A stretch of DNA of 64,000 nucleotides from a phage, in sequence record NC_111505.1. One strand, 5' to 3'. Shown here one piece after another: positions 13,828 to 58,027 of the stretch. The notes below the pieces were generated by a model. It was given only the letters and a program-made list of their open reading frames with translations, searched no databases and was not told the DNA's origin. Numbering within the stretch: position 1 is the first letter of the stretch; each line of letters begins with the position of its first letter. Both the position numbers and the translations under genes were made by a program.

Positions 13828-14127
13828 ATGTCTACAGCGACAGCTAAATACTCCTATATGCCAGCAACATCAGCAGAAATAGACTTCAGTTTCGATGTGT
13901 TTCCATTGTTTGAGATAGTTCTGGCATACCCAACAATTCTATCTACTCCTGAATCACTTGTGCCTATTAAGTTGCAGAACGCTATGCATTCCATGCACTA
14001 CAACAATAAATGCAGGCACAGATGGTGTCAGGACGAGGAAAAAGACTTGGACAGTTTGAAAGATTTTGACAGTCACCTTTTGACCCCCTTCAGTTACTCC
14101 AACCTAGACAAGCCATCATGGGTATAG
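13828..14127 (+). CDS. hypothetical protein (99 aa)
   Basis: Track start is GTG 13816; ATG 13828 preceded by GAGGTGG. Confidence 0.55.
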   Translation: MSTATAKYSYMPATSAEIDFSFDVFPLFEIVLAYPTILSTPESLVPIKLQNAMHSMHYNNKCRHRWCQDEEKDLDSLKDFDSHLLTPFSYSNLDKPSWV

Positions 14128-45344: not shown

Positions 45345-45683
45345 CTACTGAAGGTCTTCAGAGTCAAGCTCAAAAAGAATCAAACTGTGCATGTTTGCAG
45401 AGAGCTCAACACACTCCGCAACGACAAGGGTCTGATAGTAAGGTTCAGCACCCTCGATGTCTTCGTTAAAATCCACAACAAGGTAGTCACCTTTGTTAAA
45501 GGTGTATTTGTCAGATGTAAACGCAAACCCTGCCCAGTCCCCTACAGGGTCTTTATCGATCACCTTTGTTAGCAGGAGGTCTTTTTCACGAGATCTTTTA
45601 GTAAAATCGTGAATCACAACAGCCTTCTCTTCAGGATTTGGATTTCCACACACGTAGTTAACTATATTTCTCCACAAACTCAT
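45345..45683 (-). CDS. hypothetical protein (112 aa)
   Basis: ATG with AAAGGGGGA SD; ATGA overlap with the helicase gene. Confidence 0.6.
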   Translation of the reverse strand: MSLWRNIVNYVCGNPNPEEKAVVIHDFTKRSREKDLLLTKVIDKDPVGDWAGFAFTSDKYTFNKGDYLVVDFNEDIEGAEPYYQTLVVAECVELSANMHSLILFELDSEDLQ

Positions 45684-47050
45684 ACGTCCCCCTTTTCTGC
45701 TCTAGTTTCAAAATCTTTCCTGACTTTCTCGTCTAAGCCAGGGAAAGTTGTATTATAAAACTCTACGACTCGCGGGTCAACAATAATATCCACCTCTCTT
45801 AATGGACGCAACAAGTTTATTCCCTGTATCGTCTTAACCCGACTCAAGGCAACATACGTCATTCCTGGAGAGAAAGCTCCGTTCTTTCCAAGGTCCAGGT
45901 TGTAACAATCTAGCGTAAGTCCTTGACTTTTATGCGATGTTACTGCGTACCCCGATTTCAAAGGGAGTTGCTCATAAGACCCGATCACAACCCTCTCTAT
46001 GAACTTCTCCATCTTCCTTTCGGCAATATTGTACCTCTGGGAAGGTTTGTACTCGTTATTCTCCCACAATCTCGGCTCAATTTCAACCTGTGTCCCGTCT
46101 TCTAGCTCAACTACCACGGATTTAGTCTTGAATTTTACCACTGTGGCACGTGTCCCGTTGACATAATACGGAACTTTGTGAGTAGGGTCAACATCGTTTG
46201 AGGTTATCATAACCTTCATCCCTATCTTCAGCCTCATTTCCTGCTCCACAGGCAGTGTGGAAGGGAACTTACCCTTCATTTTACCAATGTAGGTCTTCTC
46301 TGGGGCCTGGATGGCATCATAGAAACGTCTGTTCACCTCCTCTGCTTGCTTATTGGTGGCGCAGATAGTCAAGGCATCTGTTGGGACACCGCCATGATAG
46401 CAACGAGTGTTAAGCTCTGCTACAACCTCTTTTATGCGACGACCTTCACGAACACAGTTCAACATTGTGGCGAAGCGAACAGATTCCTGACGGAACTGGT
46501 CTACTAAGGCTATATTGTGAAGATTAAGATCCTCCCAAGATTCTGTATAGCAACACAAATCTGTGTGGTAGAAGTTGAAGTAGGCTTCTTTCTCCATGGA
46601 AGAGACAACTGGAGGTGCTTGGTAGAAATCTCCAAACAATAACACCTGAATGCCTCCGAAAGGTTTGTCATTTTTCCGAAGAAAGCGGAGTTTTCTGTCC
46701 ATCTCTATGAACTTGTCAGCACGGATCATAGAGATTTCATCGATAATTAGGATGGTAAATGCCTTGCTTTTCAGAGGCTTTGCTGTTTTTGCCCTTATTG
46801 CTGTCCAGTCTGACTCCATGCTCACACCTGCGGCAAGATCGAAAGTTCGGTGTGCTGTTGCTCCATTAACGTTTAAAGCGGCTACCCCTGTCGGGGCAAC
46901 CGTTATGCAAGAGTCTCCATACATGGACTGGATCATGTTGATAAGATATGTCTTCCCGGTTCCACCAGGTCCACTTACGAAGACATTCTCACCACTCATG
47001 ATTGCAACAAGGGCAGCATCTGTGCCTACATCGTACTGCCCTTTCTCCAT
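45680..47050 (-). CDS. SF1B DNA helicase (Dda/RecD/Pif1-like)
   Basis: Walker A ...VSGPGGTGKTY...; ...IIDEISMI... (Walker B); ATG with GAGGAGG SD. Confidence 0.75.
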   Translation of the reverse strand: MEKGQYDVGTDAALVAIMSGENVFVSGPGGTGKTYLINMIQSMYGDSCITVAPTGVAALNVNGATAHRTFDLAAGVSMESDWTAIRAKTAKPLKSKAFTILIIDEISMIRADKFIEMDRKLRFLRKNDKPFGGIQVLLFGDFYQAPPVVSSMEKEAYFNFYHTDLCCYTESWEDLNLHNIALVDQFRQESVRFATMLNCVREGRRIKEVVAELNTRCYHGGVPTDALTICATNKQAEEVNRRFYDAIQAPEKTYIGKMKGKFPSTLPVEQEMRLKIGMKVMITSNDVDPTHKVPYYVNGTRATVVKFKTKSVVVELEDGTQVEIEPRLWENNEYKPSQRYNIAERKMEKFIERVVIGSYEQLPLKSGYAVTSHKSQGLTLDCYNLDLGKNGAFSPGMTYVALSRVKTIQGINLLRPLREVDIIVDPRVVEFYNTTFPGLDEKVRKDFETRAEKGDV

Positions 47051-48265: not shown

Positions 48266-50248
48266 TTATTTGATGTTATTCTTTGTATCGATCAGTTCAC
48301 GGTATTCAATCATAGCAGGGGTGTCCCAATATTTCAAGCCTACATGCTTTAAAAGTGGATATTTCTTTTCCAATCTCGCAATATAGGCCTTCCCGCACTT
48401 AACTCGGTTGGCGATTAAGACTTTGGCACGATGATTCAGCTCACCGTACTTCCACGTGGTGCTACCTTCCCACTTGTGGAAATGTGGCCGATAATTTCCA
48501 AAATCCTGCATGGGTATAATTTTACCTAACTGTCTGTACAGGCTGTCATATGAAGTTTCATTTGCTGCGCGAGTCAGTAAGAATTTCCAAGCATCCTCTT
48601 TCAACAAATGTTCCACATTCTTCTCTGTAACATATTGGCAATCAGGATCAGTCCAAAGCAGACGAGATTCCGACACCAGGTACAGATCTTCCCCTTCAGG
48701 AATCTGGAGTGCCGCACGCACACGGTCATAATCTTGCTGGTAGATGTTACTCATCTGCCCTAGCCAACAACTTCCGCGTTGGATATCCCCCTCATACGGT
48801 ATGCAGTGCTTAATCTTCCTGAACTCTGCCTTAGTAATACGCTCACGCCGGAAGTAACCATCCTTCTCAAGTTTTTTAACCCAATAACCGGGCTCATAAC
48901 GAGTTTTTGTTTCACCTTTCTTCACAGGTCGGCGAGGAAGCTCTGATAACAATTTGACCGTATCTGCAAAGAACGGATGGTGTGCCACTTCTTTAAACTC
49001 TTTTACCAGATCCGTGTTCCGGCAATAGAAAACGTTGCGTCCGGTGATCTCGCTTAAGTAGTTACACTTATTTCGGTTATATTTACCGTCTCCGTCGTTA
49101 AATACTAGATAGACTCCTCGTAAGAATTCTACCTTTCCGTAACAAGCGTATCCTATGCGGCTTTTATTTAAGCCGCCTGCGAAGATCTCACAGTCCCCTA
49201 AATTCCCTAGTCCTGTTTCTTCCCACCGGTCATACATAAAATTCTTACCGAAGATGTGCCCGAACACTCCACTGTTCTTCATCATCTCGCGTGCTTCTGA
49301 GGATGTTTTTGCTGTCTCCAGTTCCGCAACAACTTCTGCTCCACGAAGACGGATACCTTCTTTGACAAAAGCTTCCAAACGCTCTTGGAATCCACCATCA
49401 TCGTGACCTTCTATGGTCCATTCACGTCCTGGGTTAATATTGCAGTCTCCGATAGGGATCTCTACACAAATTGCAGGATAATCTGTTAGTGTTTCCAGGA
49501 ACTTAGAACGGTAAGGTTGGTGACCCATTACCACACGACTCTCGTCAGAGCTGGTATAGCCCTTCAGGATGGTCATCTTCCAACCATCTTTTTCATAATA
49601 ATACTGCGCCTCTACTTTGTCTCCCTCCAGCATCTTGCTCGTCATCGGATCGGTGACAGTGAACGGAAATTTTGCATAGCGTAGACATGATGCAATAGCG
49701 GTGCGATATTTCAGAACATGCTCTTTCTTAACATGAAACTGAACTTTTACTCCATTGTGCTCTTCAGTCTTCCGCTCACGGATCTTGGTGACATTTGGGA
49801 TACCCTGGTCCAAGAACAATAGGTATGTGCTTTCCACACCATTGTGCACACTGATTACATCGAAAGTGTCCACCATGCTGAACGGGGCCTTTGAACCAAC
49901 ACCTTTATTGCCTACCAGATCGTTGCTGTTGCGCTTGGTTGACTCGCCGAGGTTCATGAAAGTGTTGCGGACCATCTCTTCTGACATACCGAGGCCAACG
50001 TCCTGCACAAAGAAGTATGGTTCAAGATCTGTAGGGGAGTGAATGATGATCGGAACATCACCACGTCCAGACTCAACATGAGAGTCCACAGCATTGAAGA
50101 TTGGTTCACGGCAGCTTGCCAGCACCTTATCTTCATAAATCCCTTTAATGATTAACCCAAAAGTTTCTTTGTTCAGAGAAATTGATCCCCTTGTTACCTC
50201 CAAATTCCCAGTTAGCACTGCTTTAGTTTCATTACTGTTTACAATCAT
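48266..50248 (-). CDS. rIIA: rIIA-like protein with N-terminal GHKL (histidine kinase-like) ATPase domain
   Basis: N-box-like ...REPIFNAVDS..., G1 ...VQDVGLGMS..., G2 ...GNKGVGSKA...; 660 aa; ATG with AAGGAG SD. Confidence 0.5.
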   Translation of the reverse strand: MIVNSNETKAVLTGNLEVTRGSISLNKETFGLIIKGIYEDKVLASCREPIFNAVDSHVESGRGDVPIIIHSPTDLEPYFFVQDVGLGMSEEMVRNTFMNLGESTKRNSNDLVGNKGVGSKAPFSMVDTFDVISVHNGVESTYLLFLDQGIPNVTKIRERKTEEHNGVKVQFHVKKEHVLKYRTAIASCLRYAKFPFTVTDPMTSKMLEGDKVEAQYYYEKDGWKMTILKGYTSSDESRVVMGHQPYRSKFLETLTDYPAICVEIPIGDCNINPGREWTIEGHDDGGFQERLEAFVKEGIRLRGAEVVAELETAKTSSEAREMMKNSGVFGHIFGKNFMYDRWEETGLGNLGDCEIFAGGLNKSRIGYACYGKVEFLRGVYLVFNDGDGKYNRNKCNYLSEITGRNVFYCRNTDLVKEFKEVAHHPFFADTVKLLSELPRRPVKKGETKTRYEPGYWVKKLEKDGYFRRERITKAEFRKIKHCIPYEGDIQRGSCWLGQMSNIYQQDYDRVRAALQIPEGEDLYLVSESRLLWTDPDCQYVTEKNVEHLLKEDAWKFLLTRAANETSYDSLYRQLGKIIPMQDFGNYRPHFHKWEGSTTWKYGELNHRAKVLIANRVKCGKAYIARLEKKYPLLKHVGLKYWDTPAMIEYRELIDTKNNIK

Positions 50249-50745
50249 TTATTGCGCTCCTTGTAGTAGATATGACTCCCGAATTGAGCTGTCCTCTGCA
50301 TCTTTTTTGCCCATTTCGGTCGTACTTTTGTTGTATGATAGTGTGTTGCTCCACCTGTTATATCCATAGCCATGTATGCAACATGGTTGTTATTATAGAC
50401 CTTTAGAAGCATCTTTGCAAGACTTTTAGCGTGATCCCATGAATCTTTTTCTGTCACCTTAAAAGTTTTGCCGTGGTTTGTCCACGAAAACTGGTTAGGT
50501 TGGTAGACAATCTTTCTTATAGTGTCTGGGTACTTAGGGTGAGATTTCCTGTTTAGTGTGGCAAACCCAGATGCCAACATACCCATCGTGCCATCTCCTC
50601 TGGCTTCCCTGTAGATATTGCATGCCAGAATGTTCTCCTTAGTATCCGATGGCTTGCAGGTGTGATATACTTTTTGTTTTGGTGCTGCAACAACAGGCAG
50701 CGATAAAAATGCGCTCAAAATAATAGCAAAGATTTTAATTTTCAC
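50245..50745 (-). CDS. Secreted SleB-type cell-wall hydrolase-like protein
   Basis: Signal peptide KIKIFAIILSAFLSLPVVAAP; ...ACNIYREARGDG... resembles the SleB/CwlJ hydrolase family; apparent GTG start with TTGGAG SD. Confidence 0.55.
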   Translation of the reverse strand: MKIKIFAIILSAFLSLPVVAAPKQKVYHTCKPSDTKENILACNIYREARGDGTMGMLASGFATLNRKSHPKYPDTIRKIVYQPNQFSWTNHGKTFKVTEKDSWDHAKSLAKMLLKVYNNNHVAYMAMDITGGATHYHTTKVRPKWAKKMQRTAQFGSHIYYKERNK

Positions 50746-50751
50746 AATAAC

Positions 50752-50781
50752 TCCAAATAGAAAATCCCCGCCGAAGCGGGG
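50752..50781 (-). terminator. Rho-independent terminator (- strand)
   Basis: CCCCGC-TTCG-GCGGGG followed by ATTTTCTATTT. Confidence 0.6.
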
Positions 50782-50794
50782 GTGGTCTTAGAAA

Positions 50795-51175
50795 TTAGTC
50801 GTAGTGTGCCAAAATCTCTCCATCGTTGCAAGTTCCCTCTACGAAGTTGTGAAGATTCATGCACTCGTCTTGGTAGAAGAATTTACCGCTTTTCAGCCGT
50901 AGACCAAACAACTCCGCATCTCCACGATGGCAAGCCTCTACAAGTTCATAGATTTCATACGGTAACTCTCCATCGTCATGGAAGAACCCCGCTTTATCGT
51001 TGACATAGATGAAGAAATAGTCACTGCTGTCGCAAGCGTCTAATATTTTAAACCAGATTTCATCTACATCTTTTTCTCTGATATCGATCACGCAAGTGGA
51101 GCTGCATTCGTACTCCTTCTCCGGCTCCTCGGTCAATACCACCAGGTAGTTTCCCCGCTTACCTACTTTAGCCAT
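50795..51175 (-). CDS. hypothetical acidic protein (126 aa)
   Basis: ATG with TGAGGAGG SD. Confidence 0.6.
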   Translation of the reverse strand: MAKVGKRGNYLVVLTEEPEKEYECSSTCVIDIREKDVDEIWFKILDACDSSDYFFIYVNDKAGFFHDDGELPYEIYELVEACHRGDAELFGLRLKSGKFFYQDECMNLHNFVEGTCNDGEILAHYD

Positions 51176-51184
51176 ACAACCTCC

Positions 51185-52369
51185 TCAAGCTTTAGCTAAA
51201 ATGGCGCTAAACTCTTCACCAAACTCTTTTACAATCTTCATCAGGTTTGGGTATGCTTTGATCAGCTGAGCAACGATCTTGTCCCGGCCTTTACCAATAA
51301 GTAAGGCATTTCCTAGGGCGTTGGGTTTCATCATCGCCATAAAGACTGAGAATACAAAGTCTCGGTTCTCATCCTTGAAATTTTCCCAAAGGAAATCAAG
51401 GAAGTTTGCCACGCAGCTAACAAGATCTTCGTCTGAGACACTTGCATTTTCCATCATATTCCGAATAGCAATACAACCTTCAGACCCAAGAATCCACAAA
51501 ATATCTGGCTGCTTAGGACCTACATACTCTTTGCAACCCCCTGCCATAATCCGACCGATTTCTGGCAAGTTTCGTTTCTTGGTGTGGTAGGTCCAGATTT
51601 CTACCGCTGCAGTGTGACCAATAGCACCTTGCAGAAGAACACGAGCCATAGCGTCAGAAATAATACCGCTGTCAAAATCGTGCAGGATGTCAGATGCAGC
51701 AACCCAAGATCGCGGTGTAGCAAAAGATGGACAATTAATCTCAGCCATAGCCTCATAATTATCGATAGCTGATGGAACTCTTTTCAGATATCCAATTACA
51801 GAGGAATGCACACCATTAAGGAATGCGTAGTCCTCAATAAATACCTCTGCACTGCTTGTAACTTCTACAATGATAAAGCGGTTAGCCAGAGGGGCTTCGA
51901 GCGCTGAAAGAACAGCACCATCCGTAGCACGGTTACCTGCAGCTACAAAAACAGAGCCCTTAGGAAATGCATAGGTGCCGCACTTGTGGTCGAGCATAAT
52001 TTGCATTGCAACCTTCTGCAGGTAGTTATCTGCATGAGTAAGCTCATCCAGAAAGATAATTCCGCTCCAGTCCGAGTCTGCAGGCCAAAATTCTGGAATT
52101 GCAAACACTGTGCGTGTAGTTCCATCTGCCTCTACAGGGATAGGTAGTCCAGACAAGTCAGCAGGATCTTTATCTGACAGCCGCACGTCAACCAGGTTGT
52201 CATCTCGCTCACCGAACATATTATCAGCAATCTGCTTCATCACCTGGCTCTTCCCCACACCCATCGGTCCTAAAATCAGGACAGATCGGTTATGACGCTG
52301 GGCAAATTGAATAATAGCTGGCAACTCGCGGACAGTGATTTGACCACTTTCGAATACGTTTCTTGACAT
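51185..52369 (-). CDS. AAA+ ATPase (MoxR/CobS/NorQ-like, AAA_5 type)
   Basis: Walker A ...ILGPMGVGKSQV..., Walker B ...GIIFLDELTHA...; ATG with AGAGGA SD. Confidence 0.7.
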   Translation of the reverse strand: MSRNVFESGQITVRELPAIIQFAQRHNRSVLILGPMGVGKSQVMKQIADNMFGERDDNLVDVRLSDKDPADLSGLPIPVEADGTTRTVFAIPEFWPADSDWSGIIFLDELTHADNYLQKVAMQIMLDHKCGTYAFPKGSVFVAAGNRATDGAVLSALEAPLANRFIIVEVTSSAEVFIEDYAFLNGVHSSVIGYLKRVPSAIDNYEAMAEINCPSFATPRSWVAASDILHDFDSGIISDAMARVLLQGAIGHTAAVEIWTYHTKKRNLPEIGRIMAGGCKEYVGPKQPDILWILGSEGCIAIRNMMENASVSDEDLVSCVANFLDFLWENFKDENRDFVFSVFMAMMKPNALGNALLIGKGRDKIVAQLIKAYPNLMKIVKEFGEEFSAILAKA

Positions 52370-52638
52370 TAGTAAAAGTCCTCTACTTGTGTGTAAGTGT
52401 TTTCAAAGTTTTCCAAAACAGACATCACATCGGATCTGTCAATATCATACGCAACTCTCCAGCCATATGCAACCCTTTCTGCTGTTGCCTCTTCTGGATC
52501 TAGTCGTCTGCTGGCATGAAAGAGTGTTGGAGTACACTTTCTTGCTTGCCCTCTAACTTTCCCATAATAATATCTGTGAATATCTTTGTCAAAATTTAAT
52601 TCTTTTTCTGCACGAAGTTCGTACTGCTGGTATAACAT
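52369..52638 (-). CDS. hypothetical protein (89 aa)
   Basis: ATG with TAAGGAG SD; TAATG overlap with the AAA+ gene. Confidence 0.6.
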   Translation of the reverse strand: MLYQQYELRAEKELNFDKDIHRYYYGKVRGQARKCTPTLFHASRRLDPEEATAERVAYGWRVAYDIDRSDVMSVLENFENTYTQVEDFY

Positions 52639-52682
52639 CTCTACTGCTCCTTAAGCAGCATCCTTGCCGCCATCCCTACCCA

Positions 52683-53063
52683 CTAAAATGCAGTCCGAAT
52701 CCAGACAAGGTTCTTATCTGCCCAATCATAAAGGCAAGTCATTGCACTATTGAATTGCTCACACGGAGGGTAATCTTCTTCCATCCGGCGCATAGCGGAT
52801 CCTTGTGGGTATAACTCCAGTGCTGCAAACCACGCATCGTAGTCATCCACGGTGTCGAAGTAGTATACAACATCCTCCAACTCAGGATCGAACTTTGAAC
52901 TATCAGGATCCAGTTGTTCAGGGAACTTGGAGCGTAACTTGCCAGCCACAATACTTGCCAACTCGCTAACATGCTTGTTGTCCCACTCTACCAGTTTCCC
53001 GTCTTCAGTTATGCGTCCTAACCACTGATCATGAAGGTCAACTGTTGTCTTCCACTGGGCCAT
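52683..53063 (-). CDS. hypothetical acidic protein (126 aa)
   Basis: ATG with AAGAGGTAG SD. Confidence 0.6.
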   Translation of the reverse strand: MAQWKTTVDLHDQWLGRITEDGKLVEWDNKHVSELASIVAGKLRSKFPEQLDPDSSKFDPELEDVVYYFDTVDDYDAWFAALELYPQGSAMRRMEEDYPPCEQFNSAMTCLYDWADKNLVWIRTAF

Positions 53064-53065
53064 TA

Positions 53066-53323
53066 TCAGTCTACCTCTTCTTCTCGTTGCAGTTCAAGAT
53101 ACCCATAGGTCTGGATATCTTCAAGGGTGTGGAACTCCCCATCTGCAGCTAAGGCACGGACAACCTGGCATAGAGTTTTATAAGGTACTTTCTCCAAACC
53201 CAGATTCAGCGCAGGAAAAACCTTATCTAAGTCAACAAAATATACAAACTGTAGCTCACCAGTTTCAAAAGGCGTATCTTCGATAAACATCTTCTCGGCA
53301 TTAGTCAAGATCTGCACTTTCAT
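53066..53323 (-). CDS. hypothetical protein (85 aa)
   Basis: ATG with AGAGGGGG SD. Confidence 0.6.
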   Translation of the reverse strand: MKVQILTNAEKMFIEDTPFETGELQFVYFVDLDKVFPALNLGLEKVPYKTLCQVVRALAADGEFHTLEDIQTYGYLELQREEEVD

Positions 53324-53553
53324 TCTTCTACCCCCTCTTCTTTTTCTTCAGCATTAGTTTCAGTGCTACCCCACTCTGGAGTTTCCACCTCGACAGTAAA
53401 CTCACGCACTACACGGTAATTGCCCATGAAGCGCTCCACTTCTTCAAGGCTTATGGAGAGGCCATTGGCAACCAAGTCTGCAGCACCCTTCTCTACCAGG
53501 TAGTCCAGATTGGCTTCCAAGGCTTCAGGCTCAAACCCTGTCAATGCAATCAT
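53320..53553 (-). CDS. hypothetical acidic protein (77 aa)
   Basis: Track start is TTG 53592; ATG 53553 with AAGGGGAGGG SD. Confidence 0.5.
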   Translation of the reverse strand: MIALTGFEPEALEANLDYLVEKGAADLVANGLSISLEEVERFMGNYRVVREFTVEVETPEWGSTETNAEEKEEGVEE

Positions 53554-53678
53554 ATAACCCTCCCCTTCATCAAGGAGGGCAATACAGCCCAACTGATTTT
53601 CTTTAAAAAGCAGTGACCATCACTATTGATTGGTTGCTCATTGCAGTAAATAGCTGCACGATAAGTAACTTTAGACAT
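53550..53678 (-). CDS. candidate 42-aa protein
   Basis: ATG with strong SD TAAGGAGG; ATGA overlap with downstream gene. Confidence 0.3.
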   Translation of the reverse strand: MSKVTYRAAIYCNEQPINSDGHCFLKKISWAVLPSLMKGRVI

Positions 53679-53690
53679 TGGTAGGCCTCC

Positions 53691-53963
53691 TTAGGCAACT
53701 GTCATTTTACATTCTTGAAATTTTAACACAAGACGGTGATTGTGTCTAGTGTCTAAAAAGATTTTTTCAACCATCAGGCACACGGTATAACCGTCCGTCT
53801 TGTTGACAACAAAATCCCCAGGGTGAGGGAGAATGTCTCTGGGGTTGGGGAAACATAACCCGCTCAAGAAGGCATCATCGGTGGTGGACTTGATGGATTT
53901 CCACACACTATCTGCCTGAACATTCTCACCAACATAATATACACTACCACATACCTTCATCAT
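53691..53963 (-). CDS. hypothetical protein (90 aa)
   Basis: Track start is TTG 53969; ATG 53963 with CGGAGA SD. Confidence 0.5.
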   Translation of the reverse strand: MMKVCGSVYYVGENVQADSVWKSIKSTTDDAFLSGLCFPNPRDILPHPGDFVVNKTDGYTVCLMVEKIFLDTRHNHRLVLKFQECKMTVA

Positions 53964-53965
53964 AG

Positions 53966-54864
53966 TCAAATCTCCGCGTAAATTAAACTGGAATCAGTAT
54001 ACTTCTTTAACGGGTAAATATCCTGTCCATAGATGCCGTCATTAAACACCTCATCTACCCAAAGGCTACACTTATATCCCATCATCTCTAAAACACCCAT
54101 CTCTTCTTCGGTAAACTTATCACCGCTCTTGCAAGATGTCAACACCTCATTCTGTACTCTTGCTACCTCGAAGCGGTTATTGGCAATATCACTATTGGCA
54201 ATCAAATACTCACCTAAAGGGTGTGCAGCATTAAAGATGCACAGTGGACGGTTGACGTAATAGTCCCCCGGTGTATAAAAATTGTTGAGATCCTTCACCA
54301 GAACATTCTTATCAGTCACTTCATTTATAACATCATGCATATCACACATCTTTATATGTTTGAGGATTCCATCCCCCATCACAAAATAAAAACTTGCTGA
54401 GACACTCTCGGCATAGATCTTACTAGATCCATTGTAGTTGTATTTTACGCGAATGCTTACAGGGGTTTTGCCTGTCGCGTTAGCCATCATCCAAAGGAAC
54501 GGAAGTTCAAACTTCTCCTCTGAGGAAACAAAAGGTGAAGTTGCCAGAGATCGGAAACCACCAGAGAAGTTGAAAGTTACAGAGCCGCTCCGGCGATATG
54601 ATACCGCATATTCTACTTTTATATCGACATAGCCGTTGGAGTAAGTGTGGCCTCCATTATCCAGATATGTCCACTTATCAGATCCGGATACCAACCTACG
54701 CTCAATCACCTTCATTACTACAGGAATTAGCGGGTTGGTACAAACCGATTTTGAAGTAGCTTTATCATCCAAAGCCTCGTAAATTGCAGAAAGGATATCG
54801 CCTGCTGAGAGATTGGTTGTGATATCTTGTTTCCACCGAGTGCTAAAGCTGTTAAGATTTGCCA
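53966..54864 (-). CDS. hypothetical protein (299 aa)
   Basis: Track start is GTG 54907; ATG 54864 with CAGGAG SD; first gene downstream of the - strand promoter. Confidence 0.55.
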
Positions 54865-54905
54865 TGATTAAGTGCTCCTGTGTTCGTTTTCTTTCGAATG
54901 GGTGC

Positions 54906-54934
54906 ACTATATCGTGGATTTAGAGTAAAGTCAA
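54906..54934 (-). promoter_or_regulatory. Sigma70-like promoter (TTGACT-N17-TATAGT), - strand
   Basis: Back-to-back with the + strand promoter in a divergent control region. Confidence 0.5.
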
Positions 54935-54947
54935 CACGTTTTTGAGG

Positions 54948-54976
54948 TTGACATCTGTTGAGGCACTTGATAAGAT
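54948..54976 (+). promoter_or_regulatory. Sigma70-like promoter (TTGACA-N17-TAAGAT), + strand
   Basis: The track ORF 54942 'start' is a TTG overlapping this -35; the real gene starts at ATG 55008. Confidence 0.55.
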
Positions 54977-55007
54977 TTCTTCACCTACAGAGCACAAGAG
55001 ACAACTC

Positions 55008-55997
55008 ATGAATCTTGAAAAATATTATACACCAGAAGAGTTAGAGCGCCTGCTCAAAAAATACAGACGCAAACAAAATAATGCACGGAAACGAGATATA
55101 GAGTTCAACCTGTCATGGGAAGAATACCTCCTATTTGGTAAAAAACTTTTAGGAGAGGGGGTGTGCGACTATACCCTTATACCTTTCGACATGCACACAG
55201 ATGAAAACGGACTGGGAAATCCTTTCTACCCCTCCCTAGAGCGGATAGATGATGAAGGTCCTTATGCTGTTGATAATTGTTGTGTGGTGGGATTGAGATG
55301 CAACTCTCTAAAGGACTGTCTGGTAGATAAAAAGACCGCAGTCTTGATTAAAGACAAAACTGATCGAAAAATTGTCCAGCAGATGATGCTCCACCTGAGC
55401 GAAGAGCGTATGGAGAAATTGAAAGGTGATTACACTTTTGAAGATTTCATCTTGCAATATGGAACGGAAGAGGATAAACTGGCACTCTTTGACGAAGAAT
55501 GGGAGGAAGATATGTCACCAATGCAGGATTTTAAAAACTTCATGGCTAATCGTGGAGCCAACAAGCACATTTCTGACATCGTAAATGAGCCTGTAACAGA
55601 AGAGATTGAAGAAATGATGCAACAGGATCACGAAGAGGAAAAAGAGCCTCAAAAGGTCGAAGAAGAGCTTACAGAAGAGGTTCCTGCACTGCCTGACGAT
55701 GTTGAGATTGCTAAAGCCTATACTTTCTATTGCCAGACGTTCTACGATGCAGGCATGAAAGTCGATCTGTCATTCAGCCAATTTAAGAGCACGTACATTC
55801 GAAAATGCTGTGCTTTAACTGGCGAGCGTTTCGGGGCCGGACTTAAACCGTTATTAGTGACCGACTGGAATAAAGGTTTCACCAAAGGTAACTTTATGGT
55901 AGTATCTCCGATCATGGAGAAGGCTATGACAGACCTTATGAAGACCACTCGCATGACAATGACCGAGTTGGCTGGTATTTTCAAGCACGTTAAATAA
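55008..55997 (+). CDS. Protein with two degenerate HNH-endonuclease-like repeats
   Basis: ...ARKRDIEFNLSWEEY...PSLERIDDEGPYAVDNCCVVGLRCNSLK... resembles phage HNH_3-type domains but lacks the full Cys/His set; acidic central linker. Confidence 0.5.
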   Translation: MNLEKYYTPEELERLLKKYRRKQNNARKRDIEFNLSWEEYLLFGKKLLGEGVCDYTLIPFDMHTDENGLGNPFYPSLERIDDEGPYAVDNCCVVGLRCNSLKDCLVDKKTAVLIKDKTDRKIVQQMMLHLSEERMEKLKGDYTFEDFILQYGTEEDKLALFDEEWEEDMSPMQDFKNFMANRGANKHISDIVNEPVTEEIEEMMQQDHEEEKEPQKVEEELTEEVPALPDDVEIAKAYTFYCQTFYDAGMKVDLSFSQFKSTYIRKCCALTGERFGAGLKPLLVTDWNKGFTKGNFMVVSPIMEKAMTDLMKTTRMTMTELAGIFKHVK

Positions 55998-56030
55998 TGA
56001 CAGGGGCCAATGGCCCCTTCTGGAGTTTTA

Positions 56031-57491
56031 ATGGATAGCAGAAGTTCAGAAATCATTGCCGCACAAAAAGATGACGCCTTGCGAATGCTGCAGGCAGCAC
56101 GTATGTATCTTCTTGAAAAACTGCCGTTTTATGGCACACTGTTGTCAGGGTTGCAGTTCGTAGAAAACCACACATGGTGCTCCACCATGGCAACAGATCA
56201 TAAACGCATTTATTACAGTCCTGAGTTCGTTATGGGATTGGCTGATGAGCGCAAAACCATTCTTGAGGCATCTTTAACTGACAAGCAGTTTGAGATGGCT
56301 GAGGTTTTCTATTCCCCCAAATCTGTGAAAGAGGTGGCATTTCTTCTATCACATGAGGTGGGGCATATTATCTGTGATCATCTGGTCCGTGGCAAAAGCT
56401 TTGAGCCGGAACTGTTCAATATTGCCTGTGATCATGTTATCAACACAGGTCTTGTGGTTGACTTTAGCAAGCCCCCTTGTGTTTTCTTCCCGAAGGGGAA
56501 AAGCACTACGTTTGTAAAAGGTAAGCCTTTTGGCTTTTTAGCTAGTTGCTACTGTGACATGAGGTTCCATGGATGGATTGCTGAGAACGTCTATGCTGTT
56601 CTTGATAAGCAAAGAGATCAGAATAGCGGTAAAAGTAAGAACGGTAAAGGCGAGAACTCTCAAGGAGATAAACGACAAACCGATGATCACATGAGTGGTA
56701 ACGGTGGCACTAGTGATGATCTTGGAAAGGCTATGGGGTATGATCAGCCACAGCCAGTGATCAGTCAATCTGATAAAGATCAAGCCATGCAGGACTCTGG
56801 TGACATGTTGGAAGCAGCAATGCAGGCTTCCGGAGGTAGTTGCCCTGAGGCTGTGCGCGAGTTTGTCAAAAACAGAGGTAAGCCTGTAATCAATTATATA
56901 GACATCATTAAGCAACGTATGTTGTCCAAACGAAAGGCTGAACTAACCTACAGAAAACCAGGTCGCCGATCTGGGTCTTTGACCAGCACAATGCGAAAAG
57001 TTGGAGCTATAAACAAGAATCAGCACGTTGTTGTTCCTGGCCGTAATCCGGAAAACACTATAGATATTGTGGTGGCTTTAGACGTTTCTGGGTCGATCTC
57101 GCAAAGAACTTTAAAGAAAATGTTCAATGAGATCACTGGGTTGTGCAATCTGTATAAAGAGTTCAAGGTTACGATGTTCTGTTGGTCAACTGAGGTTGGA
57201 GAGGTTAAAGTATACACTCGCGGGAACATCGACGAGATGATCAACTATGAGGTCCACTCAACATGGGGAACAACAGCCGCTTGCGTGTTCGAGTATCTGG
57301 ACGCTAACATACCAAATGCAAAAGATGTCATCGTCCTGACCGACCTATACTTTGAGCATAACTTTGAACAAAAGGCTGTTGACAACAAGTGGAAAAAGTA
57401 CGATACTTTATGGGTTCTCACCGAAGGGTATAATAAAAATTATATCCCTAGCTTTGGGAAAACTGTAGAATTGATCGAGTACGCTAAATAA
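56031..57491 (+). CDS. von Willebrand factor A (vWA) domain protein with N-terminal HExxH metallopeptidase-like motif
   Basis: ...SHEVGHIICDH... (HExxH); MIDAS ...VVALDVSGSIS...; ATG 56031 with GGAG SD preferred over track ATG 56010, which follows hairpin GGGGCC-AAT-GGCCCC. Confidence 0.65.
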   Translation: MDSRSSEIIAAQKDDALRMLQAARMYLLEKLPFYGTLLSGLQFVENHTWCSTMATDHKRIYYSPEFVMGLADERKTILEASLTDKQFEMAEVFYSPKSVKEVAFLLSHEVGHIICDHLVRGKSFEPELFNIACDHVINTGLVVDFSKPPCVFFPKGKSTTFVKGKPFGFLASCYCDMRFHGWIAENVYAVLDKQRDQNSGKSKNGKGENSQGDKRQTDDHMSGNGGTSDDLGKAMGYDQPQPVISQSDKDQAMQDSGDMLEAAMQASGGSCPEAVREFVKNRGKPVINYIDIIKQRMLSKRKAELTYRKPGRRSGSLTSTMRKVGAINKNQHVVVPGRNPENTIDIVVALDVSGSISQRTLKKMFNEITGLCNLYKEFKVTMFCWSTEVGEVKVYTRGNIDEMINYEVHSTWGTTAACVFEYLDANIPNAKDVIVLTDLYFEHNFEQKAVDNKWKKYDTLWVLTEGYNKNYIPSFGKTVELIEYAK

Positions 57492-57506
57492 GAGAGGATG
57501 TTATTT

Positions 57507-57767
57507 ATGGCAACAGAAGTAGTAATTAAAGCTGAACGCCCAGTTAAAAAAGCTATCAACACGTTTCCTGTAGGAACTATTGTGAGCATGATTACAGAGT
57601 CAGGTCGTGTATCTACACTGCTAATCGTGAAATCTGCATGCTCATCTTGTGTGTGGGCATATGATCTTGACGAGAAAGAACTGAAAGATTTTGTTGGAGA
57701 GCTGAAAGCAACAGAACTTGACGCTCGTATCGAAGTATTTGGTGAAACTATGGAGGAAGAGCAATGA
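57507..57767 (+). CDS. hypothetical protein (86 aa)
   Basis: ATG 57507 with AAGAGAGG SD 9 nt upstream, preferred over track ATG 57498. Confidence 0.5.
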   Translation: MATEVVIKAERPVKKAINTFPVGTIVSMITESGRVSTLLIVKSACSSCVWAYDLDEKELKDFVGELKATELDARIEVFGETMEEEQ

Positions 57768-58027
57768 CCACAAAAATCACCATTGCAGAACCGAAAGCTA
57801 ACACGCAGCCTATCGAAAAGTTTAAATGCGGTGAGGTGGTAACATTCACACCTGACAATGAAGATGCCAAGATTTTCGCCATGGTTACAGCCGAGTGGAT
57901 GTGTGACAACACCACACAGGTTCTGCGTTTTGACACCTATCTTACAGATGAAATCAGGAACGACAAGATCGTGACTGGTGTAGATACTGAGATTGTTTTC
58001 TACAAGAGCTTCGTGGAGGGTTTCTAA
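57764..58027 (+). CDS. hypothetical protein (87 aa)
   Basis: ATG with GGAGGAAGAG SD; ATGA overlap. Confidence 0.6.
   Translation: MTTKITIAEPKANTQPIEKFKCGEVVTFTPDNEDAKIFAMVTAEWMCDNTTQVLRFDTYLTDEIRNDKIVTGVDTEIVFYKSFVEGF

What the first reader, a model, noticed from the sequence alone, without database searches (positions are those of the whole stretch)
51185..57491. Split MoxR-type AAA+ ATPase and metallopeptidase-vWA pair flanking a divergent promoter region
A MoxR/CobS-like AAA+ ATPase (51185-52369, - strand) and a vWA protein with HExxH motif and MIDAS DxSxS (56031-57491, + strand) are classic functional partners, here separated by about 3.6 kb of small unknown genes and a back-to-back promoter pair (54906-54976). 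An HNH-like protein lies between them. AAA+/vWA pairs act as chaperone-like remodelling modules and have been proposed as conflict systems; their role in a phage replication region is unclear.
Basis: partly seen in the sequence, partly recalled or inferred. Interest (0 to 1): 0.55.

Follow-up and report, generated by a model that had tools for sequence, protein, structure and literature searches.

The report
Split phage MoxR ATPase–vWA protease pair
Two genes of an rV5-like E. coli phage, 3.7 kb apart on opposite strands, encode the two halves of a very widespread phage ATPase and protease module; it was already annotated, and a 2025 preprint reports that a near-identical copy of the ATPase gene is needed to overcome a bacterial anti-phage defence.

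Summary
The window is a Vequintavirus (rV5/FV3-like coliphage). Gene 51185-52369(-) encodes a MoxR-class AAA+ ATPase: all its Pfam AAA matches are below threshold, but its best solved folds are NorQ and CbbQ. Gene 56031-57491(+) encodes a zincin (HExxH) plus vWA (complete MIDAS) protein, Pfam DUF2201_N + DUF2201. The back-to-back sigma-70-like promoters at 54906-54976 are present and conserved.

The pairing is real. Among 80 viral contigs carrying a relative of the ATPase, 66 have the DUF2201 gene immediately downstream on the same strand. Only the 3 vequintavirus-like loci are split.

The pair matches what Pseudomonas phage LIT1 annotates as N4 gp24-like and gp25-like (core genes of N4-like phages). 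It also matches the MoxR and vWA-metallopeptidase pair described in jumbo phages in 2021.

In phage Bas54, whose proteins are 98.7% and 97.7% identical to these, both genes are dispensable in E. coli K-12. A 2025 transposon-sequencing preprint reports the ATPase as required to overcome defence system DS-28. Its supplementary table shows the vWA-peptidase gene is also depleted in the DS-28 host (log2FC -2.2, q=0.009), which the authors do not discuss.

Verdict: a new member of a known kind, most likely an accessory counter-defence remodelling and protease machine. The target and the mechanism are inferred. The "HNH-like" gene is an Srd-like protein.

The parts
51185..52369 (-). MoxR-class AAA+ ATPase, 394 aa. 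It matches the protein that phage LIT1 annotates as N4 gp24-like, and it is the orthologue of Bas54 bas54_0063.
   Evidence: PHROG_1297, E=4e-110. Invariant G37xGK40S, D108-E109, N146, R164 and R220. AF2 model pLDDT 82, with a helix-2 beta-hairpin at 75-90. The best solved folds are NorQ and CbbQ2. 98.7% identical to bas54_0063.
52247..52270 (-). Walker A (P-loop), GPMGVGKS, residues 34-41
   Evidence: Translation; invariant columns.
52043..52060 (-). Walker B, IIFLDE, residues 104-109
56031..57491 (+). Protein with an N-terminal zincin-like metallopeptidase domain and a C-terminal vWA domain, 486 aa. It matches the protein that LIT1 annotates as N4 gp25-like, and it is the orthologue of bas54_0055.
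56352..56366 (+). HExxH zinc-binding and catalytic motif (H108-E109-V-G-H112); a further conserved His, H117, follows
   Evidence: Invariant or nearly invariant columns.
57081..57095 (+). MIDAS motif D351-V-S353-G-S355; the remaining MIDAS residues are T414 and D438
   Evidence: Invariant columns.
54906..54934 (-). Leftward sigma-70-like promoter, TTGACT-17-TATAGT. It heads the unit that reaches the ATPase gene.
   Evidence: Identical in L001 and L002, with the same arrangement in L008. Bidirectional promoters between rV5 genes 10 and 11 were reported in PMC3606486.
54948..54976 (+). Rightward sigma-70-like promoter, TTGACA-17-TAAGAT with an extended -10 TG. It heads the unit holding the Srd-like gene and the vWA-peptidase gene.
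55008..55997 (+). Context only, not shown to be part of the module.
   Evidence: PHROG_3118, 4592 and 1400. No Pfam hit. rV5 gp11 is described as an Srd homologue. It lies next to the vWA-peptidase gene in L008 and L009 as well. Unaffected in the CFE311 screen.
52369..54865 (-). Six small or unknown genes between the promoter and the ATPase gene (299, 92, 119, 85, 126 and 89 aa). Context only.
   Evidence: Their Bas54 orthologues 0057-0062 are non-essential and unaffected in CFE311.
52564..52592 (-). Internal promoter-like site, TTGACA-17-TATTAT (11/12, the best in the region), 195 bp upstream of the ATPase start codon
   Evidence: The identical sequence is present in L001, L002 and L007. Function not tested.
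13828..14124 (+). 99-aa ORF, orthologue (92% identity) of bas54_0140, the second Bas54 gene reported as needed against DS-28. A possible further component.
   Evidence: tblastn. PHROG_12072, function unknown. Preprint text.

Best explanation
The two genes encode the two subunits of one machine of the N4 gp24/gp25 type, and in vequintaviruses it serves as an accessory counter-defence device. One subunit is a MoxR-class AAA+ ATPase. The other is a cofactor whose C-terminal vWA domain carries a complete MIDAS site and whose N-terminal domain is a zincin-like peptidase. In most phages the two genes form an ATPase-then-cofactor operon. In the vequintavirus-like loci a rearrangement placed them on either side of a back-to-back pair of sigma-70-like promoters. 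From that position both would be transcribed early by host RNA polymerase, but no transcript data were examined. The proposed mechanism is inferred by analogy with NorQ/NorD and Midasin. The ATPase forms a hexamer. The vWA domain docks on the ring through the conserved helix-2-insert pore loops. The MIDAS metal captures an acidic residue of a target protein. ATP hydrolysis then remodels the target, or feeds it to the zincin domain, which cleaves it. The target is inferred to be a host protein, possibly a component of the defence system DS-28 or something that triggers it.
For: Shown here. The ATPase is MoxR-class by fold and motifs. The cofactor is a zincin plus vWA protein with invariant HExxH and MIDAS residues. 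Of 80 IMG/VR loci holding a relative of the ATPase, 66 have the DUF2201 gene immediately downstream on the same strand (median gap 79 nt between ORF bounds). Three are split, nine end at the contig edge and two lack it. Pairwise identities of the two proteins correlate across 58 loci (r=0.95, Mantel p=0.001). The same pair is present in phage LIT1 as N4 gp24-like and gp25-like, in jumbo phage 121Q and in a 578-kb contig. It also occurs in Campylobacterota chromosomes: 44 of 80 loci are adjacent. The promoter pair is conserved. From the literature. In Bas54 (proteins 98.7% and 97.7% identical) both genes are non-essential in K-12, with 60/64 and 81/86 TA sites hit. The preprint reports, with knock-outs and plaque assays, that the ATPase is required to overcome DS-28 (bioRxiv 10.1101/2025.11.20.689424). 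In the DS-28-carrying isolate CFE311 the ATPase gene is depleted at log2FC -7.23 (q=0). The vWA-peptidase gene is depleted at log2FC -2.20 (p=0.0009, q=0.009). The eleven genes around them, 0056-0062 and 0064-0067, are unaffected. The finger-in-pore docking of a vWA partner on a MoxR ring comes from the NorQD structures (PMC13036017).
Against: The cofactor gene is depleted far less than the ATPase gene (about 4.6-fold against more than 100-fold). CFE311 carries several defence systems, so the cofactor's phenotype is not tied to DS-28. The second gene confirmed against DS-28 is a 99-aa ORF (bas54_0140), not the vWA-peptidase, so the ATPase might act there with a different partner. The module is core in N4-like phages, and relatives of the ATPase and of the cofactor are found in 786 and 565 phage records. 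It usually sits in replication or nucleotide-metabolism gene blocks. That points to a more general role than countering one E. coli system. Peptidase activity of DUF2201_N has never been demonstrated. Hexamer formation, docking, substrate capture and cleavage are all inferred. The experimental evidence is a preprint.
Confidence: 0.6

Rival explanations
1. Virion assembly or maturation chaperone-protease. The MoxR-vWA pair folds and processes structural proteins. This was proposed for the same gene pair in group 2.2 jumbo phages, by analogy with the MoxR-vWA system reported (as cited in that paper) to be required for tail assembly of Acidianus two-tailed virus.
For: Iyer et al. 2021 (PMC7824862) make this proposal. 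In phage 121Q the pair lies next to genes annotated as structural. N4-like roseophages have a second structural module near the gp24 and gp25 homologues (PMC4193335).
Against: In Bas54 both genes tolerate insertions at about 94% of their TA sites in K-12 and are classed non-essential, whereas capsid and tail genes take essentially none. Neither product is among the rV5 virion proteins named in the main text. The genes sit behind sigma-70-like promoters in an accessory region far from the structural genes. In N4 the homologues are middle genes.
Confidence: 0.1
2. General remodelling factor for the phage replication or nucleotide-metabolism machinery, for example clearing or activating proteins at replication sites. 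On this view the DS-28 phenotype is an indirect consequence.
For: The neighbours recur: 5'-3' exonuclease in 47 of 76 aquatic phage loci, thymidylate synthase, helicase and DNA polymerase in N4-like phages. The module is core in N4-like phages. In CFE311 the nearby PIF1/Dda-like helicase bas54_0068 is also conditionally essential at log2FC -6.32. Some family members give weak SprT-like matches: 4 of 29, best E=0.004.
Against: Both genes are dispensable without a recorded fitness cost in K-12. No nucleic-acid-binding domain was found. Gene neighbourhood in phage early and middle regions is weak evidence of function.
Confidence: 0.15
3. Metal-cofactor insertion or enzyme-activase chaperone, like NorQ/NorD, CbbQ/CbbO, CoxD/CoxE or the chelatases, acting on a phage or host metalloenzyme.
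For: The closest solved folds of the ATPase are NorQ and CbbQ2. Seventeen of 29 cofactor homologues give VWA_CoxE matches (best E=5.6e-07; 0.035 for the window's own protein), and NorD and BchD are among the structural matches. The pair in phage 0305phi8-36 was annotated as metalloprotein chaperonins (PMC3357382).
Against: The cofactor carries a conserved HExxH zincin domain, which none of those metal-insertion partners is described as having in the sources read here. No candidate client enzyme is conserved next to the pair. The conditional phenotype depends on a defence-carrying host.
Confidence: 0.07
4. The two genes no longer work together. After the split the ATPase acquired a new partner (for instance the 99-aa bas54_0140 product), and the vWA-peptidase acts alone or is on the way to being lost.
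For: The genes are in different transcription units. The ATPase gene has its own strong promoter-like site. The preprint pairs the ATPase with bas54_0140, and the cofactor's depletion is much weaker.
Against: Both genes are intact with all catalytic residues in every split lineage examined, from 99% down to 53% and 43% identity. Their divergence runs in parallel: 73/61, 53/43 and 35/35 % identity to the window's proteins. The helix-2-insert region of the ATPase, the partner-binding element in NorQ, is among its most conserved parts. The cofactor is significantly depleted in the same host.
Confidence: 0.08

Closest known systems
Coliphage N4 gp24 (putative AAA ATPase) and gp25 (vWFA superfamily), core genes of N4-like phages (Schitoviridae)
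   Same: Same two families. The proteins that Pseudomonas phage LIT1 annotates as 'N4 gp24-like' and 'N4 gp25-like' match the ATPase profile (E=9e-47) and the DUF2201 profile (E=1e-53) built here. Both are listed among the 14 core genes of N4-like phages and are middle genes in N4 (PMC4193335; PMC2784036). No function is given for them in the papers read.
   Different: In N4-like phages the genes are co-oriented and adjacent or one small ORF apart, inside the replication block. Here they are 3.7 kb apart, on opposite strands, in different transcription units. Sequence identity is only about 23-28%.
MoxR AAA+ and vWA pair with an N-terminal metallopeptidase, described in group 2.2 jumbo phages (Iyer, Anantharaman, Krishnan, Burroughs & Aravind 2021, Viruses 13:63)
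   Same: Same domain architecture and the same families. Jumbo phage 121Q gp563 and gp564 match both profiles (E=1e-82 and 4e-100).
   Different: That paper covers jumbo phages only and proposes virion assembly and processing. Here the genome is 136 kb, the pair is split, and the genetic data for the near-identical Bas54 genes argue against an essential assembly role.
Bas54 (Escherichia phage MaxBurger) bas54_0063 'MoxR ATPase', reported as an anti-defence gene against DS-28 (HIDEN-SEQ preprint, bioRxiv 10.1101/2025.11.20.689424)
   Same: Positional orthologue, 98.7% identical in protein. The whole 7.3-kb region is 93% identical in DNA.
   Different: The preprint does not mention the vWA-peptidase partner bas54_0055 and proposes no mechanism. 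The link to the partner is made here from comparative genomics and from the preprint's own supplementary table.
NorQ/NorD and CbbQ/CbbO (MoxR AAA+ with a vWA partner; metal insertion and rubisco activation)
   Same: They are the best structural matches of the ATPase (Foldseek E=1.6e-8 to 8e-7, TM about 0.65 on the target). NorD's vWA domain is among the matches of the cofactor. They supply the working model of finger-in-pore docking.
   Different: Sequence identity is 16-21% for the ATPase. The ATPase here has an extra C-terminal helical region of about 130 aa. The cofactor here carries a zincin domain, not described for NorD or CbbO in the papers read. No metalloenzyme client is evident.
Bacterial MoxR-vWA-centric ternary conflict systems (VMAP, iSTAND, FtsH and beta-propeller types; Kaur et al. 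2020, eLife 9:e52696)
   Same: A MoxR and vWA chaperone and co-chaperone core used in a host-virus conflict.
   Different: Those systems are bacterial and have a defining third component and effector domains. Here the module is phage-encoded, no such third component is present, the bpMoxR Pfam match is below threshold (15.7 bits against a cut-off of 27), and no PADLOC defence model fits beyond chance-level P-loop hits.
Chromosomal MoxR and DUF2201 gene pairs of Campylobacterota (Sulfurovum, Sulfurimonas, Arcobacter)
   Same: They are the closest cellular relatives of the ATPase (33-42% identity) in a scan of one genome per species. The DUF2201 gene is adjacent downstream in 44 of 80 loci, and several more overlap it. 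One example lies among ordinary chromosomal genes.
   Different: They are cellular rather than viral, shorter (about 333 and 378 aa), of unknown function, and a Sulfurovum subset has no DUF2201 gene downstream.

Membership tests
MoxR-class AAA+ ATPases (helix-2-insert clade) | Walker A, Walker B, sensor 1, arginine finger and sensor 2 residues | tested here: met
   G37xGK40S, D108-E109, N146, R164 (in the ANRF motif) and R220 (in the TPRSW motif) are invariant in 23 homologues. Assigning R164 and R220 as arginine finger and sensor 2 is by position and from my own knowledge of MoxR motifs.
MoxR-class AAA+ ATPases (helix-2-insert clade) | Beta-hairpin inserted in helix 2, and a pre-sensor-1 hairpin | tested here: met
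   The AF2 model (pLDDT 82) has strands at 75-81 and 84-90 between beta2 and beta3, and short strands at 129-134 before beta4. This is a model, not an experimental structure.
MoxR-class AAA+ ATPases (helix-2-insert clade) | Closest solved structures are MoxR proteins | tested here: met
   The top 18 Foldseek matches are NorQ chains and CbbQ2. The sequence profile hits Midasin AAA domains at E=8.5e-10.
MoxR-class AAA+ ATPases (helix-2-insert clade) | Match to the Pfam AAA_3 or AAA_5 models above the curated threshold | tested here: not met
   The window protein scores 17 bits against AAA_5 (cut-off 22), and AAA_3 is not listed. Homologues at 31-37% identity carry precomputed AAA_3/AAA_5 hits, marked weak. 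A Campylobacterota relative passes both cut-offs. The window protein is a divergent member.
MoxR-class AAA+ ATPases (helix-2-insert clade) | A vWA-domain partner encoded with it | tested here: met
   66 of 71 informative viral loci have the partner gene adjacent. In this window the partner is 3.7 kb away.
vWA domain with a functional MIDAS site | DxSxS, Thr and Asp metal-coordinating residues on a vWA fold | tested here: met
Zincin-like metallopeptidase (Pfam DUF2201_N, 'putative metallopeptidase domain') | HExxH motif with a further zinc ligand | tested here: met
   H108 and H112 are invariant, and E109 and H117 are at least 90% conserved. Pfam 97.9 bits against a cut-off of 23.2. There are weak secondary matches to Peptidase_M48 (13 of 29 members) and SprT-like (4 of 29).
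Zincin-like metallopeptidase (Pfam DUF2201_N, 'putative metallopeptidase domain') | Demonstrated peptidase activity | not testable with these tools
   The Pfam name itself says 'putative'. Only three papers in the held library mention DUF2201, none with it in the title or abstract. The N-terminal domain gave no solved-structure match, because vWA hits filled the listed matches.
N4 gp24/gp25-type module | Homology of both proteins to gp24-like and gp25-like proteins of N4-like phages | tested here: met
   The LIT1 'N4 gp24-like' and 'N4 gp25-like' proteins match the two profiles at E=9e-47 and 1e-53. tblastn finds both families in many N4-like phages. N4's own sequence was not examined.
N4 gp24/gp25-type module | Co-oriented, adjacent genes (ATPase upstream) | tested here: not met
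   Here the genes are divergent and 3,661 bp apart. This is the one respect in which the vequintavirus-like loci depart from the rule.
Bacterial MoxR-vWA ternary conflict systems (Kaur et al. 2020) | A third core component (VMAP, inactive STAND, FtsH or beta-propeller) and effector domains | tested here: not met
   No such domain turned up among the 10 ORFs between 48266 and 57491 that were scanned, nor among the genes of related loci with precomputed Pfam hits. bpMoxR is below threshold. There are no meaningful PADLOC matches.
HNH endonuclease (for the gene at 55008-55997) | Match to an HNH / His-Me finger model with catalytic His and Asn residues | tested here: inconclusive
   It matches PHROG families labelled HNH endonuclease, endonuclease VII and Srd. 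It has no Pfam HNH match and no solved-structure sequence match. Reading the sequence, the position expected for the catalytic His reads ...SLERIDDEG...; this was judged by eye only, without an alignment.

The most novel reading that the evidence does not exclude
The N4 gp24/gp25-type MoxR and zincin-vWA pair may be a general ATP-driven, MIDAS-guided 'targeted protease' with which phages dismantle host immune or other host proteins. Relatives of its two halves are found in 786 and 565 sequenced phage genomes, spanning Schitoviridae, Vequintavirinae and jumbo phages. The DUF2201 family holds more than 20,000 clusters at 50% identity. The vequintavirus pair and DS-28 would be the first tractable case. 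That would give a function to two long-unexplained core genes of N4-like phages and define a new mechanistic class of anti-defence factor: an energy-dependent enzyme rather than a stoichiometric inhibitor.
Probability: 0.25. Interest if true: 0.7.

Novelty: new member of a known kind. Interest (0 to 1): 0.42.

Why it matters
The pair itself is not a discovery. It is annotated in GenBank, its kind was described in jumbo phages in 2021, its promoters were reported for rV5 in 2013, and a near-identical copy of the ATPase gene has a reported anti-defence phenotype.

What this analysis adds is the connection between those separate pieces:

- The vequintavirus ATPase reported as needed against DS-28 is half of an otherwise nearly always adjacent two-gene module.
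- Its other half is a vWA protein with an intact zincin active site.
- That other half is significantly depleted in the same host in the preprint's own data.
- The module belongs to the same two families as the proteins annotated N4 gp24-like and gp25-like, whose function is listed as unknown.

If the pair acts together, it offers a genetically tractable E. coli system. The genes are non-essential, the host defence is defined, and knock-outs already exist. It could be used to find out what a very widespread phage MoxR, vWA and peptidase machine does.

Tried and rejected
1. Pfam, NCBIfam and PADLOC on the ATPase gave only sub-threshold P-loop matches. A single-sequence search of PDB sequences gave only Walker A-level hits to Clp proteins. 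Classification needed homologues, a profile and a fold search.

2. A PDB sequence search with the vWA-peptidase found nothing as a single sequence and only weak vWA and M48 hits as a profile.

3. Neither fold search of the cofactor model placed the N-terminal zincin domain, because vWA hits filled the listed matches. Which zincin family it is closest to remains open. The only hints are weak Pfam matches to M48 and SprT-like.

4. A genome scan with the DUF2201 alignment failed for lack of a sufficiently conserved stretch. The ATPase alignment was used instead.

5. I tested whether one simple inversion explains the split, by looking for homologues of the intervening genes in the unsplit relative L006. 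None was found apart from SleB, the ATPase and the cofactor. The rearrangement path is unresolved.

6. The bacterial ternary conflict systems and known defence systems were considered and rejected.

7. An essential virion-assembly role was considered and judged unlikely from the Bas54 insertion data.

8. Literature searches for DUF2201, and for MoxR together with vequintavirus terms, listed nothing that names this pair. A search for DS-28 gave no description of that system.

9. The mirror-tree correlation is reported, but it is weak evidence, since any two vertically inherited phage genes would correlate.

Full report
**What the window is.** The 7.3-kb region around the finding is 93-98% identical in DNA to 121 phage records, almost all Escherichia vequintaviruses (FV3, rV5 and the BASEL phages). 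In those records the two genes are already annotated 'MoxR ATPase' and 'putative metallopeptidase' or 'hypothetical protein'. The genes between and beside them are annotated as anti-sigma factor, putative 1-3 fucosyltransferase, SleB-type cell wall hydrolase, rIIA, rIIB and a helicase.

- The 486-aa protein from 56031-57491(+) matches Pfam DUF2201_N ('putative metallopeptidase domain', E=1e-27) and DUF2201 ('VWA-like domain', E=2.8e-11), both well above the curated cut-offs.
- In an alignment of 29 homologues down to 23% identity, H108 and H112 of the HExxH motif and the MIDAS residues D351, S353, S355, T414 and D438 are invariant; E109 and H117 are at least 90% conserved.

The 394-aa protein from 51185-52369(-) is less obvious.

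- All its Pfam AAA matches are below threshold, and NCBIfam and PADLOC see only the P-loop.
- Homologues at 31-37% identity carry precomputed AAA_3/AAA_5 hits.
- A profile of 23 homologues hits the AAA domains of Midasin.
- The Walker A, Walker B, sensor 1 and two arginine positions are invariant.
- The AF2 model (pLDDT 82) shows the helix-2 beta-hairpin insert typical of this clade.
- Its 18 best solved-structure matches are NorQ chains and CbbQ2, all MoxR proteins.

The two promoter-like sites are exactly as described: 54934..54906(-) and 54948..54976(+), each 10/12. The total number of such sites in the 8-kb region is at chance level, so the pair is credible for other reasons.

- It occupies the only divergent intergenic region, 54866-55007.
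- It is identical in two relatives, and a relative at 73% protein identity has the same back-to-back -35 arrangement.
- Bidirectional promoters between rV5 genes 10 and 11 were reported in 2013 (PMC3606486).

The GC-skew sign also flips here.

**Are the two genes partners?** I collected 80 viral contigs encoding a relative of the ATPase and searched each with a profile of the vWA-peptidase.

- In 66 loci the DUF2201 gene lies immediately downstream on the same strand. The median gap is 79 nt between ORF bounds; one locus has a 1-kb insert.
- In 9 loci the contig ends just after the ATPase gene.
- In 2 loci no DUF2201 gene was found in the 1.1-1.6 kb that remain downstream.
- Only 3 loci are split and divergent, and they are the three closest to the window (99%, 73% and 53% ATPase identity).

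A relative at 35% identity on a 146-kb contig has the genes adjacent. tblastn hits in Cronobacter phages CR3 and CR8 and Pectobacterium phage phiTE lie at positions compatible with adjacency there too. The split is therefore probably a derived state within this phage group. I could not reconstruct the rearrangement.

Pairwise identities of the two proteins correlate across 58 loci (r=0.95, Mantel p=0.001). That fits inheritance as a unit but is not specific evidence. tblastn finds the ATPase family in 786 phage records and the vWA-peptidase family in 565, with parallel host distributions.

The pair is also present in the following.

- Pseudomonas phage LIT1, where the genes are annotated 'N4 gp24-like' and 'N4 gp25-like' and lie next to the helicase and DNA polymerase genes.
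- Jumbo phage 121Q.
- A 578-kb contig, where it lies among HSP20, ClpS and ClpP genes.
- An N4-like metagenomic contig.

The closest cellular relatives of the ATPase are chromosomal genes of Campylobacterota. Most of them have a DUF2201 gene just downstream. The DUF2201 family is very large: 20,360 clusters at 50% identity with E<=1e-10.

**What was already known.**

- N4 gp24 (putative AAA ATPase) and gp25 (vWFA) are among the 14 core genes of N4-like phages. Their function is listed as unknown, and they are middle genes in N4 (PMC4193335 and PMC2784036).
- Iyer et al. [quoted passage not shown]
- In Bacillus phage 0305phi8-36 a deletion that removes a MoxR gene and a vWA-like gene, along with other genes, is viable with a growth defect (PMC3357382). 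I did not test whether those two genes belong to the DUF2201 type.

**The most relevant result: the HIDEN-SEQ preprint** (bioRxiv 10.1101/2025.11.20.689424) on Bas54. Bas54 is Escherichia phage MaxBurger. Its bas54_0063 and bas54_0055 products are 98.7% and 97.7% identical to the window's ATPase and vWA-peptidase.

- Both genes are classed non-essential in K-12, with 60/64 and 81/86 TA sites carrying insertions. So are all the genes from 0049 to 0068.
[quoted passage not shown] Knock-outs were tested by plaque assay.
- The vWA-peptidase is never mentioned in the text.
- The supplementary resampling table for K-12 against CFE311 gives these values:

| Gene | Product | log2FC | q |
|---|---|---|---|
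| bas54_0063 | MoxR ATPase | -7.23 | 0 |
| bas54_0140 | unknown, 99 aa | -5.48 | 0 |
| bas54_0068 | PIF1/Dda-like helicase | -6.32 | 0 |
| bas54_0055 | vWA-peptidase | -2.20 | 0.009 (p=0.0009) |

- The eleven genes around the pair, 0056-0062 and 0064-0067, are unaffected.

The predicted partner thus shows a conditional defect in the same host, in the same direction, but much weaker.

**How it most likely works.**

*Shown.* The two families, their intact catalytic and metal-binding residues, their near-obligate adjacency elsewhere, and their position here behind conserved sigma-70-like promoters. Taken from the preprint: their dispensability in K-12, and the requirement for the ATPase on a DS-28 host.

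*Inferred, from the NorQD structures* (PMC13036017) *and the general MoxR-vWA model summarised in* PMC7159879.

1. The ATPase forms a hexamer.
2. The vWA domain docks on the ring. The stretch from D71 to P99, which holds the helix-2 insert and the loop after it, is among the most conserved parts of the ATPase. In NorQ this element binds the partner's finger.
3. The MIDAS site holds an acidic residue of a target.
4. ATP hydrolysis remodels the target, or presents it to the zincin domain for cleavage.

That the target is a DS-28 component is a guess. The weaker phenotype of the cofactor, the involvement of bas54_0140, and the module's presence in hundreds of phages inside replication gene blocks all leave room for a more general function whose loss merely exposes the phage to DS-28.

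An essential role in virion assembly is unlikely in this phage, given the insertion data. A metal-insertion role of the NorQD kind does not explain the conserved zincin site.

**Comparison and novelty.** By fold and motifs the ATPase is a divergent member of the MoxR class, although it fails the Pfam thresholds. The cofactor is a clear DUF2201-type zincin-vWA protein. Together they belong to the N4 gp24/gp25-type module and to the pair described in jumbo phages. They differ from the rule only in being split across a divergent promoter region. They are not a member of the bacterial MoxR-vWA ternary conflict systems: there is no third component and no PADLOC match.

The finding is a new member of a known kind, with a rearranged gene order. 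Interest is moderate. It connects a published phenotype of the ATPase to an unmentioned partner carrying a protease active site, and to a very large phage gene family of unknown function.

**Caveats.**

- The key experimental evidence is a preprint.
- Its supplementary sheets S6 (labelled CFE303) and S7 (labelled CFE311) carry the same command line and matching rows, so only the CFE311 comparison could be read.
- CFE311 carries other defence systems besides DS-28.
- Structure-based statements rest on AF2 models.
- No interaction between the two proteins was tested.

Noticed in passing
window 56031-57491, and phage records listed: PHROG_1314, the family of these zincin-vWA proteins, carries the label 'HNH endonuclease'. 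Many GenBank phage records call this gene 'HNH endonuclease' (GAP31, phiTE, CR8, Hena1, phage G, Atu_ph07), perhaps through that label. Pfam finds no HNH domain in any of 29 members. It looks like a propagated misannotation.
   Followed up: partly
window 13828-14124 (+): A 99-aa ORF of unknown function (PHROG_12072), 92% identical to bas54_0140. That is the second Bas54 gene reported as required against defence system DS-28 alongside the MoxR ATPase. It lies 37 kb from the ATPase gene. It could be a substrate, an adaptor or an independent factor.
   Followed up: partly
window 45680-47050 (-): A PIF1/Dda-like helicase (Pfam PIF1, E=1.8e-33). Its Bas54 orthologue bas54_0068 is non-essential in K-12 but strongly depleted in isolate CFE311 (log2FC -6.32, q=0). 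It is not mentioned in the parts of the preprint text I read.
   Followed up: partly
window 50700-58000, against the records: Sixteen records named 'Campylobacter phage' (MG0656xx; host written as C. jejuni for 15 of the matching records) match this E. coli vequintavirus region; the seven listed are about 94% identical in DNA over the whole 7.3 kb. The host label looks doubtful. Separately, the closest cellular relatives of the ATPase are in Campylobacterota, but at only 33-42% protein identity, so the two observations are probably unrelated.
   Followed up: no
window 53966-54865 (-): The gene is annotated 'putative alpha 1-3 fucosyltransferase' in relatives. It has no Pfam match and falls in a PHROG of unknown function, so the annotation appears unsupported.
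   Followed up: partly
window 52369-52638 (-), and 52564-52592: The 89-aa ORF just upstream of the ATPase gene belongs to PHROG_13164, which is labelled 'ATPase' although the protein has only 89 residues. Inside it lies the best sigma-70-like site of the region, TTGACA-17-TATTAT (11/12). The identical sequence is present in three close relatives. It may be a dedicated promoter for the ATPase gene.
   Followed up: partly
L089 1-11434 (578-kb metagenomic contig): In this very large contig, whose neighbouring genes look phage-like, the ATPase and DUF2201 pair sits among HSP20, ClpS and ClpP genes and a T4-type RNA ligase gene. The neighbourhood has a protein-quality-control and proteolysis theme.
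   Followed up: no
L154 and L165 (Campylobacterota chromosomes): The Arcobacteraceae chromosome locus carries the MoxR and DUF2201 pair plus a second DUF2201 gene 4 kb upstream, among ordinary metabolic genes. In Sulfurovum sp. CS9 the ATPase gene has no DUF2201 gene downstream; instead an unassigned 462-aa ORF ends just after the ATPase start codon.
   Followed up: partly
Supplementary file 9 of bioRxiv 10.1101/2025.11.20.689424: Sheets 'Data S6' (headed K-12 vs CFE303) and 'Data S7' (headed K-12 vs CFE311) show the same command line, naming the 311 sample, and matching rows. The CFE303 table seems to have been replaced by a copy of the CFE311 one.
   Followed up: yes
window 50245-50745 (-): A SleB/CwlJ-type cell wall hydrolase (Pfam Hydrolase_2, E=2e-19) with a hydrophobic, signal-like N-terminus. 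It is encoded in the same leftward unit as the ATPase gene and rIIA/rIIB, not in a lysis cassette. Its Bas54 orthologue is non-essential.
   Followed up: no
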